Positions 20,576-21,967 of a DNA stretch of 32,000 bases are shown here, one piece after another. Both the position numbers and the translations under genes were made by a program. Numbering within the stretch: the first letter of the stretch is position 1; each line of letters starts with the position of its first letter. The DNA is from Telmatocola sphagniphila (GTDB lineage Bacteria; Planctomycetota; Planctomycetia; Gemmatales; Gemmataceae). The notes beneath the pieces were generated by a model. The model saw only the letters and a program-made list of their open reading frames with translations. It searched no databases and had not been told where the DNA came from. The DNA lies in the NCBI RefSeq assembly GCF_018398935.1, contig NZ_CP074694.1:4350001-4382000 (forward strand). Reading direction: 5' to 3'.

Positions 20576-21967
20576 TTAGTGGGTCGGTGACGGATTACCT
20601 ATGCTGGCCAAGTATTGAGCCAGAGCCTTCCGTTCGGTGGCCGTGCCTACCAAGGGCGGCATGTACTTGCGGTAGGTGGATTCCGCTGCATTTTTATGCA
20701 GCGTTTCCAGTAACGCTTGGATGGCGGTTGCATCTCGACCCGCAATTAGCGAGGCCATCGGTCGGTAGCCATTCACAGTATGGCAACTGGAACATTGGCC
20801 CAGGAACATCAGGTGGCCGATGTCTTTCTGACGCTCGCCGGTTGCAGTGCCGTTCTGCCAGTCGGCCCGTTCTTCCGGTTTCAACCAAGGCGAGTTCTTG
20901 AGGAATCCTTCCGCATTGAACTTCTCGACATCGGATTTGCGAACGCCGTTGGAGTACATGTGGCCGGAAATCACATAAGGCTTGCGCAGCATCTCGCGAG
21001 CGTATTCCGTGGATCCCGTAGCGGCGGCGGCAATGAACATAATCGCCATTGCATGGCCAAAGCTGAAGTCTGTCGGCCGTTGGTAAGCGATGAAGTAAAC
21101 AATCGCGAGCACGGTGGCCGAGGTCATCACGGAAACCAGTGCTGAACGGGTGACCTGAGTGAAGGTGCCCTGCCCGATTGTGGTGATGCCCAGTTCCAAG
21201 AGGCCCTTGCTATCGGCGGGTACGGAGGAGAGGTACCAGAGGAAGAAGATCGGCATCAACAGGAACGAGGGAAACAACCACCCGGCGGACCAGCGCACCA
21301 GACTGGTTTTCAGTTCCGGTTTTTCATCGCTGTCGATCCGGGAAGCGGTCAGCATCCCGAAGATCCCGGCCATTGAGCAGCAAACGGCGATTCGCATGAA
21401 AAGGCTGGGGAAGTAGGTCGGGTTGAAGAAGGCCTGCCAGAAGCGTGAAGCTTCTTTGCCCGTCCCGTTCACTTCCATCCAACTTTCCCCGGGCGTCAGC
21501 ATAAAGGTTAAGATGCCGTTGATGATCACCAGTGTCAGCAGCGAGGTGATCGCATATAACCAACCGACATTTTGATGGGTCCTATCCGGAATGCGATTCC
21601 AGGTGTAATAATAGACGGCCGCCGCAGTCAGTTCGACAATGAAGAAGACCCATTCGATCGCCCAGCCGAACACAAAGTTATGGATGAGCGTGCTGGTCCC
21701 TTCCGGCTGAGCCAGACCGATGGCGAACCAGATCGCCACACCCGTCACCGCCCCATACACCCCGGTGAGCACCAGGAAGAAATAGGAGTGTTTCTTCAGG
21801 TGTTTGAGCCAATCGGTGCGGCCTTCTTTGCGGGCTTTGTATTCGGCCATGGCGAGATACAGGCCACCTCCCACTGCGAAGTGGGAGACCATCACATGAA
21901 ATATAGCGATGGCGCCGATCACCCAAGTGCTGCCGATAAACGGTACATCCCAAAATGGATAATTCAT
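20576..21967 (-). CDS. Polytopic membrane protein: cytochrome bd subunit I (CydA)-like domain fused to a C-terminal monoheme cytochrome c
   Basis: The N-terminal stretches AIFHVMVSHFAVGGG, VLTGVYGAVTGV, GWAIEWVFFIVEL, YTWNRIPDRTHQNVGW and TEYAREMLRKPY run parallel to E. coli CydA as I recall it (YHFLFVP, FALGVATGL, PLAIEGLMAFFLES, GWDRLGKVQH, AEYGRQPW). The C-terminus contains GQCSSCHTVNG (CxxCH). The long periplasmic Q-loop of canonical CydA is absent. Confidence 0.7.
   Translation of the reverse strand: MNYPFWDVPFIGSTWVIGAIAIFHVMVSHFAVGGGLYLAMAEYKARKEGRTDWLKHLKKHSYFFLVLTGVYGAVTGVAIWFAIGLAQPEGTSTLIHNFVFGWAIEWVFFIVELTAAAVYYYTWNRIPDRTHQNVGWLYAITSLLTLVIINGILTFMLTPGESWMEVNGTGKEASRFWQAFFNPTYFPSLFMRIAVCCSMAGIFGMLTASRIDSDEKPELKTSLVRWSAGWLFPSFLLMPIFFLWYLSSVPADSKGLLELGITTIGQGTFTQVTRSALVSVMTSATVLAIVYFIAYQRPTDFSFGHAMAIMFIAAAATGSTEYAREMLRKPYVISGHMYSNGVRKSDVEKFNAEGFLKNSPWLKPEERADWQNGTATGERQKDIGHLMFLGQCSSCHTVNGYRPMASLIAGRDATAIQALLETLHKNAAESTYRKYMPPLVGTATERKALAQYLASIGNPSPTH

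What the first reader, a model, noticed from the sequence alone, without database searches (positions are those of the whole stretch)
20576..21967. CydA-like (cytochrome bd subunit I-like) domain lacking a Q-loop, fused to a monoheme cytochrome c, as the last gene of a Rieske/cyt b operon
Several stretches of the 463-aa protein line up with E. coli CydA as I remember it. FHVMVSHF aligns with YHFLFVP (the helix-1 His heme ligand region). GWAIEWVFFIVEL aligns with PLAIEGLMAFFLES (the two conserved Glu). YTWNRIPDRTHQ aligns with FGWDRLGKVQH. TEYAREMLRKPY aligns with AEYGRQPW. The long quinol-binding Q-loop is missing, and the C-terminal ~100 aa carry CSSCH. A protein with a bd-type heme pocket and an attached cytochrome c would take electrons from a c-type donor, here plausibly the Rieske centre, rather than from quinol. 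I recall c-fused, Q-loop-less members of the bd superfamily being catalogued bioinformatically, but I know of no biochemical characterisation. Their genetic coupling to a Rieske/cyt b complex would imply a bc-to-bd-like electron path to O2 or another acceptor.
Basis: partly seen in the sequence, partly recalled or inferred. Interest (0 to 1): 0.7.

Follow-up and report, generated by a model that had tools for sequence, protein, structure and literature searches.

The report
Hybrid bc–bd-like respiratory oxidase operon
The gene is real: it encodes a cytochrome-bd-type oxidase subunit that has swapped its quinol-binding loop for a cytochrome c domain, and it sits in a four-gene operon, conserved in at least ten bacterial phyla, that most likely wires a quinol-oxidising Rieske/cytochrome b complex directly to a copper-free oxygen-reducing site that nobody has yet tested in the laboratory.

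Summary
Observation confirmed. Window 20576-21967, minus strand, encodes a 463-aa protein that passes Pfam Cyt_bd_oxida_I (E 4.7e-20). Its AlphaFold model has 8 TM helices plus a C-terminal class-I cytochrome c domain, and it matches only bd oxidase chains in the PDB. H24, E105, E112 and H131 align with E. coli CydA H19, E99, E107 and H126. The Q-loop and the heme b558 ligands are absent. CSSCH and M436 are conserved family-wide. It is an ortholog of the OR-C1a subfamily that Murali, Gennis and Hemp catalogued in 2021 and that remains uncharacterised.

New here:
- The first gene of the operon (23608-24756) is annotated 'hypothetical' and has no Pfam hit. It is a cryptic second bd-fold subunit, found elsewhere adjacent to or fused with OR-C1a.
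- The order partner–Rieske–cyt b–OR-C1a held in all 68 related loci with enough flank, across at least 10 phyla. No fifth gene is conserved.
- An E-x2-R-x-P-aromatic motif in TM8 suggests that the heme b595 Glu ligand is retained.

Most likely mechanism (inferred): menaquinol → Rieske → heme c → His/Glu-ligated hemes → O2. The acceptor and the physical association are untested.

The source organism is Telmatocola sphagniphila. I rate this a new variant of a known kind, of moderate to high interest.

The parts
23608..24756 (-). Gene 1: a 382-aa, 9-TM membrane protein that I call memX. It is a cryptic bd-fold second subunit, equivalent to OR-C1b or CydB. H38 is conserved in TM1 (codon 24643-24645). 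It has no Glu pair and no CxxCH.
   Evidence: No Pfam or NCBIfam hit. It is 100% identical to 'hypothetical protein KIH39_17470' of Telmatocola sphagniphila, and all homologs are annotated 'hypothetical'. The AF2 model has pLDDT 91.4. Its best 13 Foldseek PDB hits are all CydA or CydB chains, with E down to 3e-5 and TMq up to 0.63. hhalign against the OR-C1a family gives E 2.4e-4. The memX HMM hits OR-C1a-type proteins at 2e-10 and 3e-11 in a 149-sequence search. Homologs occur fused to OR-C1a (L087, L088) or directly downstream of it (L092).
23132..23611 (-). Gene 2: Rieske [2Fe-2S] protein, 159 aa. It has an N-terminal SRRVF Tat-like motif and a TM anchor. The cluster motifs are CTHLAC and CACHGG (C101, H103, C106, C119, C121, H122).
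   Evidence: Pfam PF00355 at E 1.2e-13, and NCBIfam PetC / Rieske_proteo at about 1e-18. All six Cys/His residues are 100% conserved in 75 orthologs. The start codon overlaps the memX stop (ATGA).
21991..23130 (-). Gene 3: unsplit b6-like cytochrome b, 379 aa. It combines a b6 part and a subunit-IV part. The heme ligands are H110/H124 and H211/H226. The Qo motif PEWY is at residues 300-303.
   Evidence: Pfam PF00033 at 1.6e-44, PF13631 at 3.7e-42 and PF00032 at 7.6e-9; NCBIfam cytochrome b6 at 1.9e-61. The His ligands and the E301-W302-Y303 of the PEWY motif are at least 94% conserved in 84 orthologs. The position of the heme ci Cys is W (YYWGG), read directly from the sequence.
20576..21967 (-). 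Gene 4, the finding: an OR-C1a-type bd-superfamily subunit I, 463 aa, with 8 TM helices and a C-terminal monoheme cytochrome c domain.
   Evidence: Residues at the positions of Murali Table S6 for OR-C1a (H24, E105, E112, H131, L153, Y119, Y121, V77, W80, and T145 for S145) match one for one.
20963..21967 (-). bd-like membrane domain, residues 1-335 (TM1-TM8). Key codons: H24 (21896-21898), H96 (21680-21682), E105 (21653-21655), E112 (21632-21634), H131 (21575-21577), R192 (21392-21394), and the TM8 motif E321-x3-E325-x2-R328-K-P330-Y (20975-21007).
   Evidence: Helices come from the AF2 model. Conservation is shown, the alignment to CydA, and the codon coordinates.
20579..20938 (-). Periplasmic linker plus class-I cytochrome c domain, residues about 344-463. 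CSSCH is at 20780-20794. The probable sixth ligand M436 is at 20660-20662.
   Evidence: C392, C395 and H396 are invariant and M436 is conserved. Pfam PF13442/PF00034 hits are weak here but above cut-off in relatives. With 8 TM helices and K/R-rich even-numbered loops, the C-terminus lies outside the membrane (read from the sequence).
20502..20547 (-). Intrinsic terminator that ends the operon: a perfect 16-nt inverted repeat, folded as 18 pairs, with a 9-nt loop and then UUUUU.
   Evidence: Read from the sequence. The fold is -32.1 kcal/mol, z -6.9, with 0 of 200 shuffles as stable. The consensus scan missed it because the loop exceeds 8 nt.
24757..25008 (-). AT-rich 252-bp intergenic region upstream of gene 1. 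It presumably holds the promoter, which I did not map.
   Evidence: Read from the sequence. No convincing sigma-70 match on the minus strand.

Best explanation
The window comes from the planctomycete Telmatocola sphagniphila. It carries a four-gene operon: memX, Rieske, cyt b and OR-C1a.

Shown here:
- OR-C1a is a cytochrome bd subunit-I homolog that keeps the O2-site and proton-channel residues H24, E105, E112 and H131.
- OR-C1a has lost the Q-loop and the heme b558 ligands, and has gained a periplasmic monoheme c domain.
- memX is a second bd-fold subunit.
- The Rieske protein and the b6-like cytochrome b carry all their cofactor ligands and a PEWY Qo site.
- No cytochrome c1 or f gene is present.
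- The four genes travel together in this order across at least 10 phyla.

Inferred:
1. The four proteins form one complex or an obligate supercomplex.
2. Menaquinol is oxidised at the Qo site.
3. One electron passes through the Rieske cluster to the heme c of OR-C1a. That heme stands in both for cytochrome c1/f and for heme b558.
4. The electron then reaches one or two high-spin hemes in the TM1-4/TM8 bundle, ligated by H24 and probably E325. There O2 is reduced to water, with protons drawn from the cytoplasm through E112, E105 and H131.
5. The second electron recycles through hemes bL and bH, as in a Q cycle.

The result would be a copper-free quinol:O2 oxidoreductase. It would conserve more energy per electron than a canonical bd oxidase.
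For: Identity of OR-C1a:
- Pfam PF01654 at E 4.7e-20.
- Foldseek top 20 hits are all bd oxidase chains.
- Ligand alignments.
- The ortholog Cabther_A0912 is listed as OR-C1a, and Chloracidobacterium thermophilum scores OR-C = 1.

Partner subunit:
- The memX model matches only bd oxidase chains among its top 13 hits.
- Sequence homology to OR-C1a.
- Natural OR-C1a::memX fusions exist, and a two-gene OR-C1a-memX form.

Coupling to Rieske/cyt b:
- The gene order is identical in 68 of 68 loci with enough flank. The other 14 loci are cut by contig ends, and all 14 show cyt b directly upstream.
- The order is also found in relatives of 43-44% identity.
- No fifth gene is conserved.
- Gene junctions overlap or abut, and a terminator follows gene 4.

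Intact chemistry:
- The Rieske Cys/His, the four heme-b His and PEWY are conserved.
- H24, E105, E112, the E-x2-R-x-P-aromatic motif, CxxCH and Met are conserved across 102 diverse OR-C representatives.
- OR-C1a is as conserved as cytochrome b (median 61% against 64% identity to the window), well above Rieske (51%) and memX (42%). This argues that it is catalytic rather than a passive anchor.

Topology places heme c on the same side of the membrane as the Rieske cluster (positive-inside rule read from the sequence).
Against: - No experiment exists for any OR-C enzyme, so the heme content, the acceptor and the complex stoichiometry are all unknown.
- The E325 = E445 equivalence rests on a motif match and a 2.2-bit local alignment. 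Murali Table S6 scores E445 as absent in OR-C1a.
- I could not inspect model coordinates, so no heme-pocket geometry or inter-subunit docking was checked.
- Fused and two-gene OR-C forms work without an adjacent Rieske/cyt b. The bd-like module can therefore take electrons from other c-type donors, and the cassette could be two co-regulated enzymes rather than one.
- The cassette also occurs in MAGs from anaerobic digesters and in Hydrogenedentota and Omnitrophota, which does not single out O2 as the acceptor.
Confidence: 0.55

Rival explanations
1. OR-C1a is mainly the cytochrome c1/f equivalent of this Rieske/cyt b complex. Its heme c collects electrons from the Rieske cluster and hands them to soluble or membrane-bound acceptors, such as heme-copper oxidases or, in Chloracidobacterium and Thermochlorobacter, the type-1 reaction centre. 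The bd-like helices serve as an anchor or scaffold, with little or no catalysis.
For: The operon has no other c-type subunit. The cyt b of Chloracidobacterium clusters with that of green sulfur bacteria (PMC4122944), whose Rieske/cyt b complex lacks cytochrome c1 (established knowledge). Phototrophs with type-1 reaction centres carry the cassette (L001, L040, L063). If it is their only bc complex, it must feed the reaction centre. I could not check that.
Against: A mere anchor would not keep H24, E105, E112, H131 and the TM8 Glu/Arg motif across 102 representatives of at most 50% identity. It would not be as conserved as cytochrome b. It would not need a second bd-fold subunit that is fused to it in some lineages.
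Confidence: 0.2
2. The complex has the same architecture and electron path, but the physiological acceptor is not O2. It could be NO, H2O2 or peroxynitrite, or another small oxidant, making this a detoxifying or anaerobic respiratory reductase.
For: Canonical bd oxidases are implicated in NO and peroxide tolerance (reviews PMC9266656 and PMC8951039, listed). The cassette occurs in MAGs from anoxic digesters and in Hydrogenedentota and Omnitrophota. An Rrf2-type regulator, the family that includes the NO sensor NsrR, lies upstream in 10 of 68 loci. Multi-heme OR-C relatives occur in Desulfovibrio.
Against: Many carriers belong to lineages with aerobic or microaerophilic cultured members (established knowledge, not tested here): Gemmataceae, Acidobacteriaceae, Armatimonadota, Chloracidobacterium and Thermochlorobacter. 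The retained residues are those of the O2-reducing site and its proton channel. No nitrogen-oxide genes are linked to the cassette.
Confidence: 0.15
3. The four genes encode two separate enzymes that are only co-transcribed: a c1-less Rieske/cyt b complex and a stand-alone cytochrome c:O2 oxidoreductase (OR-C1a/memX). A diffusible cytochrome c or a similar carrier runs between them.
For: OR-C1a/memX exists as a stand-alone fused or two-gene unit without Rieske/cyt b. 'Superoperons' of complex III and IV genes are common in Acidobacteria (PMC8407424).
Against: The two bd-like genes flank the Rieske/cyt b pair rather than sitting together, and this interleaved order never varied in 68 loci. The junctions are translationally coupled. 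No carrier gene is conserved nearby. A c1-less bc complex needs a fixed acceptor within reach of the mobile Rieske head (established knowledge of bc complexes).
Confidence: 0.1

Closest known systems
OR-C family (OR-C1a/OR-C1b) of the cytochrome bd superfamily (Murali, Gennis and Hemp 2021, bioRxiv 10.1101/2021.01.16.426971)
   Same: It has 8 TM helices, no quinol site, CxxCH in subunit I, and conserved H19, E99 and E107 equivalents. The window protein matches the OR-C1a reference residue for residue. Its Chloracidobacterium ortholog is in their OR-C1a list.
   Different: The text I could read describes OR-C1b as adjacent to OR-C1a and mentions pet genes only for OR-N1 and OR-N5. Here the partner is separated from OR-C1a by Rieske and cyt b, has 9 predicted TM helices and carries no heme c. 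Their table scores E445 as absent, whereas I find a conserved E-x2-R-x-P-aromatic motif. I could not see their Figure 1 or the journal version.
OR-N1 and OR-N5a/b bd-like proteins linked to petA/petB/petD (Nitrospirota, Chloroflexota, Rubrobacter; same paper)
   Same: A Q-loop-less bd-like subunit is genetically coupled to Rieske/cyt b genes, which implies quinol oxidation by the bc module.
   Different: OR-N subunits have 10-14 TM helices, no fused heme c and different proton-channel residues. Here a fused heme c bridges the two modules.
Canonical cytochrome bd quinol oxidase (E. coli CydAB; Geobacillus, Mycobacterium and Corynebacterium structures)
   Same: It shares the fold of both subunits and the equivalents of H19, E99, E107 and H126. 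It probably also shares the E445-R448-P450 motif.
   Different: There is no Q-loop and no H186/M393 heme b558 site. TM9 is replaced by a cytochrome c domain. Electrons cannot enter directly from quinol.
Obligate bcc-aa3 (III2IV2) supercomplex of Actinobacteria, and ACIII-caa3 supercomplexes
   Same: The functional idea is the same: a quinol-oxidising module is hard-wired through a bound c-type heme to a terminal oxidase, with no soluble carrier.
   Different: Those use a heme-copper oxidase. Here the terminal module is bd-like and copper-free, and the bridging heme c is fused to the oxidase subunit itself.
Green sulfur bacterial Rieske/cyt b complex (petCB, no cytochrome c1)
   Same: It has an unsplit 7-helix-type b6-like cyt b with PEWY and no c1 gene. 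The Chloracidobacterium cyt b clusters with the Chlorobi sequences (PMC4122944; PMC3509893).
   Different: Green sulfur bacterial operons lack the two bd-like genes (established knowledge, not tested here).

Membership tests
Cytochrome bd superfamily, subunit I (Pfam PF01654) | Profile match above the curated cut-off | tested here: met
   72 bits against 26.2, E 4.7e-20, over TM1-TM5 only.
Cytochrome bd superfamily, subunit I (Pfam PF01654) | CydA fold | tested here: met
   AF2 model with pLDDT 85.4. Foldseek PDB hits 1-10 are CydA chains and hits 11-20 are CydB chains, and the next hits fall to E above 0.3.
Cytochrome bd superfamily, subunit I (Pfam PF01654) | His ligand of the active-site heme (E. 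coli H19) and proton-channel residues E99, E107 and H126 | tested here: met
   H24, E105, E112 and H131 in HMMER alignments. They are conserved in 87-97 of 102 diverse relatives.
Cytochrome bd superfamily, subunit I (Pfam PF01654) | Glu ligand of heme b595 (E. coli E445, in the E-Y-G-R-Q-P-W motif) | tested here: inconclusive
   E325-M-L-R-K-P-Y has identical spacing and lies in TM8. The motif is conserved in about 95 of 102 representatives. The local alignment alone scores 2.2 bits, the Pfam C-terminal half is not hit, and Murali Table S6 scores it absent.
Canonical quinol-oxidising cytochrome bd (qOR1-4a) | Q-loop / quinol site and heme b558 ligands H186 and M393 | tested here: not met
   The TM6-TM7 loop is about 20 residues. 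TM5 (185-208) has no His. The position aligned with H186 is M191, next to R192. The protein is therefore not a quinol oxidase subunit, despite database names such as 'cytochrome ubiquinol oxidase subunit I'.
OR-C1a (Murali et al. 2021) | No quinol site; at least one CxxCH in subunit I; 8 TM helices; H19, E99 and E107 retained | tested here: met
   The residue table matches at all ten listed positions.
OR-C1a (Murali et al. 2021) | Placement with the authors' own OR-C1a set | tested here: met
   The 64-65%-identical Chloracidobacterium thermophilum ortholog (P0019, in the same cassette, L001) corresponds to Cabther_A0912 in their OR-C1a list. That genome has a single bd-family gene, classed as OR-C. 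I built no tree of my own.
OR-C1a (Murali et al. 2021) | Paired with a second, CydA-derived subunit (OR-C1b) | tested here: met
   memX has the bd fold, is homologous to OR-C1a, and is adjacent to or fused with OR-C1a in other lineages. Whether memX falls inside the authors' OR-C1b clade could not be tested, because I had no access to their sequences.
Rieske/cytochrome b (bc1/b6f-type) complex | Rieske CxH...CxxH cluster motifs with the disulfide Cys pair; four heme-b His ligands; Qo PEWY motif | tested here: met
Rieske/cytochrome b (bc1/b6f-type) complex | A dedicated c-type (c1, f or di-heme c) subunit | tested here: not met
   The operon and its conserved neighbourhood hold no separate cytochrome c gene. 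The only c-type heme is the one fused to OR-C1a.
Single four-subunit bc-bd-like complex (proposed here) | Physical association of all four proteins, and electron transfer from Rieske to heme c to the bd-like hemes | not testable with these tools
   Only synteny (68 of 68 loci), translational coupling and topology support it.

The most novel reading that the evidence does not exclude
The four genes encode one obligate membrane complex: a third, copper-free route from quinol to O2. In it a Q-cycling Rieske/cyt b module is hard-wired, through a heme c fused to the oxidase, to a bd-type di-heme site built from two bd-fold subunits. It would combine the high O2 affinity and copper independence of bd chemistry with roughly the energy yield of a bc1 complex plus an oxidase. 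It would be widespread in soil and freshwater Acidobacteriota, Planctomycetota, Verrucomicrobiota, Armatimonadota and aerobic Chlorobi-like phototrophs, where surveys currently score it as 'bc1' or 'cydA'.
Probability: 0.4. Interest if true: 0.8.

Novelty: new variant of a known kind. Interest (0 to 1): 0.6.

Why it matters
Genome surveys count terminal oxidases to infer how microbes cope with oxygen. This gene is routinely named 'cytochrome ubiquinol oxidase subunit I', which it cannot be, because it has no quinol site. Its partner subunit is annotated 'hypothetical' everywhere.

If the cassette is a single quinol:O2 enzyme, several abundant soil and freshwater phyla own an unrecognised, copper-free respiratory branch with a higher energy yield. 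In Chloracidobacterium thermophilum it is the only bd-family gene.

The work also gives a concrete target for the first characterisation of any OR-C enzyme. The unit is four genes, has cultured hosts (T. sphagniphila, C. thermophilum) and offers named residues to mutate. It may also bear on how c1-less Rieske/cyt b complexes of the 'green clade' pass on their electrons.

Tried and rejected
- **Pfam and NCBIfam on memX.** Nothing significant. hhalign of the memX family against single E. coli CydA or CydB sequences was uninformative, although it did pair H38 with H19. The fold search and the HMM hits to OR-C1a relatives settled the question.
- **Pfam on the isolated TM6-TM8 segment**, to test the E445 equivalence. 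There was no hit to the C-terminal half of PF01654, so I fell back on motif conservation.
- **The consensus terminator scan** missed the real hairpin because its loop is 9 nt. I found it by reading the sequence and confirmed it by folding.
- **A fifth conserved gene**, such as a CydX-like small subunit, an assembly factor or an electron carrier. Clustering all ORFs of at least 30 aa within 2.5 kb of 68 cassettes found none. The best family was present in 11 loci.
- **The downstream 1133-aa DUF7133/HEAT/cytochrome c gene** (16975-20376, same strand) as part of the system. I rejected it: a terminator intervenes, and it is not conserved next to the cassette elsewhere.
- **Cyt b or Rieske fusions to OR-C1a** among 149 family representatives. 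There were none, only memX fusions.
- **Literature searches** for the Chloracidobacterium locus tags, for 'bd-like' with Rieske, and for OR-C. I found no functional or structural study.
- **Classification as OR-N**, which is pet-linked. I rejected it on TM number, the fused heme c and the authors' own classification of the ortholog.
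Full report
**1. What is at the coordinates**

Window 20576-21967 holds a 463-aa ORF on the minus strand. Its N-terminus MNYPxWDVP is invariant among homologs, so the start is right. It is the last of four tightly packed minus-strand genes:
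- a 382-aa membrane protein, which I call memX (23608-24756);
- a Rieske protein (23132-23611);
- a b6-like cytochrome b (21991-23130);
- the gene in question.

The memX stop overlaps the Rieske start (ATGA). One base separates Rieske from cyt b. A 23-nt spacer with GGAAGG precedes the last gene. A 16-18-bp hairpin followed by UUUUU lies 30 nt after its stop codon, with -32.1 kcal/mol, z -6.9 and 0 of 200 shuffles as stable. This hairpin separates the operon from the next gene on the same strand. memX is 100% identical to a hypothetical protein of Telmatocola sphagniphila (Gemmataceae, Planctomycetota), on a 6.59-Mb contig.

**2. Is it CydA-like?**

Yes, well beyond chance.
- Pfam Cyt_bd_oxida_I scores 72 bits against a cut-off of 26.2 (E 4.7e-20), covering TM1-TM5.
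- A profile of 58 homologs hits Geobacillus CydA in the PDB at E 6.8e-6.
- An AlphaFold2 model (pLDDT 85.4, pTM 0.82) shows eight TM helices followed by a small helical domain.
- Its best 20 Foldseek matches in the PDB are all bd oxidase chains, ten CydA then ten CydB. Scores then fall to E above 0.3.

The HMMER alignments pair H24 with E. coli H19, E105 with E99, E112 with E107 (one residue shorter between the two Glu, as in the Geobacillus type) and H131 with H126.

Ungapped, REMLRKPY matches AEVGRQPW / AEYGRQPW. E325, R328 and P330 therefore correspond to E445, R448 and P450. That local match is weak by itself (2.2 bits). However, the motif E-[WFY]-x-R-E-x-x-R-[KR]-P-[YFW] is present in about 95 of 102 OR-C representatives that share at most 50% identity.

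The Q-loop is absent, with about 20 residues between TM6 and TM7. TM5 contains no histidine, so there is no heme b558 site.

The C-terminal domain carries CSSCH, in which C392, C395 and H396 are invariant, and a conserved M436. Its own Pfam cytochrome c scores are sub-threshold, but relatives pass. Eight helices with K/R-rich even-numbered loops place both termini, and so the heme c, on the periplasmic side.

**3. Which family**

Murali, Gennis and Hemp (bioRxiv 10.1101/2021.01.16.426971) divided the bd superfamily into qOR, OR-C and OR-N. They define OR-C by the missing quinol site, CxxCH in subunit I and 8 TM helices, with a paralogous OR-C1b partner. Their reference residues for OR-C1a are H24, E105, E112, S145, H131, L153, Y119, Y121, V77 and W80. 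These coincide position for position with the window protein, which has T145.

Their Table S7 lists Cabther_A0912 of Chloracidobacterium thermophilum as OR-C1a with one heme c. Their Table S2 gives that genome a single bd-family gene, classed as OR-C. The C. thermophilum protein recovered here (P0019) is 64-65% identical to the window protein and lies in the same cassette. The protein is therefore a member of a catalogued subfamily. No paper in the held library, up to 2026, reports biochemistry or structure for OR-C.

**4.

memX has no Pfam or NCBIfam hit, and every database source calls it hypothetical. Several results identify it.
- Its AlphaFold2 model (pLDDT 91.4, 9 TM) matches only bd oxidase chains among its first 13 PDB hits, with E down to 3e-5 and TM up to 0.63.
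- Family-to-family hhalign against OR-C1a gives E 2.4e-4 over TM4-TM7.
- A memX HMM hits some OR-C1a-type proteins at 2e-10 and 3e-11 in a 149-sequence search.
- In other lineages a memX homolog lies directly downstream of a diheme OR-C1a (L092), or is fused to OR-C1a in a single 800-860-aa protein (P0250, P0291, P0299; L087, L088).

memX keeps a His in TM1 (H38, followed nine residues later by GG, as for H24 in OR-C1a). It lacks the Glu pair, like the 'b'-type paralogs described by Murali et al..

**5. Is the link to Rieske/cyt b real?**

Of the 80 loci kept plus those fetched by identity, all 68 with enough upstream sequence have memX-Rieske-cyt b-OR-C1a in that order. The remaining 14 are cut by contig ends, and all 14 show cyt b immediately upstream.

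Going by the titles of the records, carriers include Planctomycetota, Acidobacteriota, Verrucomicrobiota, Hydrogenedentota, Armatimonadota, Chlorobi-like phototrophs (Thermochlorobacter, Chloroherpetonaceae), Omnitrophota, Sumerlaeia, Fibrobacterota and Nitrospiraceae. Flanking genes differ between loci. Clustering all flanking ORFs found no fifth conserved gene. The commonest neighbour occurs in 11 of 68 loci, and an Rrf2-type regulator in 10. The cassette also occurs around OR-C1a relatives of only 43-44% identity.

Within the cassette, OR-C1a is as conserved as cytochrome b (median identity to the window 61% against 64%). Rieske is at 51% and memX at 42%. In a library clustered at 50% identity, the cassette-type orthologs are represented by one full-length sequence plus what look like fragments. 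All other full-length matches are at most 47% identical to the query. The search found 275 clusters at E ≤ 1e-30 and 1104 at E ≤ 1e-3.

**6. Are the bc components functional?**

- The Rieske protein has CTHLAC and CACHGG. All six Cys/His residues are 100% conserved in 75 orthologs, and it carries an SRRVF Tat-like N-terminus.
- Cytochrome b has the two His pairs (H110/H124 and H211/H226, with the b6-type spacing in helix D) and PEWY.
- There is no c1 or f gene.
- Kao and Hunte placed the C. thermophilum cyt b with Chlorobi and NC10, with PEWY and low- to mid-potential Rieske proteins (PMC4122944). That fits menaquinol as the substrate. This last step is inference.

**7. Mechanism**

Shown: the parts list, their cofactor motifs, their topology and their invariable co-occurrence.

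Inferred: menaquinol is oxidised at Qo. One electron goes through the Rieske cluster to the OR-C1a heme c, which replaces both cytochrome c1/f and heme b558. From there it reaches the heme or hemes held by H24 and probably E325, where O2 is reduced using cytoplasmic protons conducted by E112, E105 and H131. The other electron follows the Q cycle. This would add Q-cycle proton translocation to the charge separation of a bd oxidase.

Rivals:
- **(a)** OR-C1a is chiefly a c1 substitute feeding other acceptors.
- **(b)** The acceptor is NO, peroxide or another oxidant.
- **(c)** The operon encodes two co-transcribed but separate enzymes.

The stand-alone fused and two-gene forms show that the bd-like pair is a self-sufficient module that oxidises c-type donors. 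This supports catalysis and counts against (a). It also keeps (c) alive. The interleaved gene order, which never varied, and the lack of any conserved carrier gene count against (c). Nothing here discriminates O2 from other oxidants except the identity of the retained residues and the lifestyles of many carriers.

**8. Novelty and verdict**

The protein family is known and named, so the gene itself is a new member. I did not find the following described in the text and supplements I could read. I could not see the paper's Figure 1 or the journal version.
- The strict four-gene bc-linked architecture for OR-C. The authors mention pet linkage only for OR-N1 and OR-N5.
- The identification of the unannotated first gene as the second bd-fold subunit, supported by natural fusions.
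- The conserved TM8 Glu/Arg/Pro motif, where their table scores E445 as absent.

I therefore rate it a new variant of a known kind. It is interesting mainly because it turns an uncharacterised family into a defined and widespread experimental target of four genes.

Noticed in passing
L087 6001-8424; L088 6001-8397 (proteins P0291, P0250; also P0299): Single polypeptides of 798-859 aa fuse an OR-C1a-type subunit (with heme c) to a memX-type subunit. In the two loci fetched they stand alone, with no Rieske or cyt b gene nearby.
   Followed up: yes
L092 2263-4951: This is the two-gene form. A diheme OR-C1a (P0248) is followed directly by a memX homolog (E 5e-73), with no Rieske/cyt b.
   Followed up: yes
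Related loci, upstream of the cassette (for example L049 2764-3237): An Rrf2-family regulator-like ORF lies upstream of the cassette in 10 of 68 loci. This is the family of NsrR and IscR. It may hint at regulation by NO, iron or redox state.
   Followed up: partly
window 16975-20376 (-): A 1133-aa protein with DUF7133 / glucose-sorbosone-dehydrogenase-like, HEAT-repeat and C-terminal cytochrome c domains lies directly downstream on the same strand. A strong terminator separates it from the operon, and it is not conserved next to the cassette elsewhere.
   Followed up: partly
window 25009-25896 (-): Formylmethanofuran-tetrahydromethanopterin formyltransferase (Ftr; both Pfam lobes at about 1e-60), an H4MPT-linked C1-transfer gene, lies just upstream of the operon.
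   Followed up: no
window 13521-16961 (-): A run of four overlapping or abutting genes includes a VWA-domain membrane protein (15969-16961), a TPR protein (15116-16150) and two proteins with no Pfam hit. From memory, the composition recalls Bat (aerotolerance)-type operons. I did not test this.
   Followed up: no
window 25968-28319 (-) and 12058-13581 (-): An MMPL-family transporter (E 9e-111) and an MgtE magnesium transporter with CBS domains. Both look like ordinary neighbours.
   Followed up: no
window 18595-20052 (+): A 485-aa ORF runs antisense inside the 1133-aa gene. It is probably a spurious open frame and was not examined.
   Followed up: no
OR-C1a residues H96/N97 (window 21677-21682), N182 and R192 (21392-21394); memX residues 82-113 (window 24418-24513): There are conserved positions with no counterpart among the known bd ligands. 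H96 and N97 are invariant within the cassette clade (across all OR-C, H96 is H in 60 and R in 23 of 102). R192 (101 of 102) and N182 (98 of 102) are conserved across all OR-C, and R192 sits next to the position of the lost b558 ligand H186. In memX, the stretch MTYVINLGVPPLLFAQVLYGRALYTSSVLIG is the longest nearly invariant stretch I noted in the alignment. The roles of all these positions are unknown.
   Followed up: partly
Database annotation of homologs: Public sources name these proteins 'cytochrome ubiquinol oxidase subunit I' or 'cytochrome bd-I ubiquinol oxidase', although they lack the quinol site. Surveys that count cydA may misassign them.
   Followed up: partly
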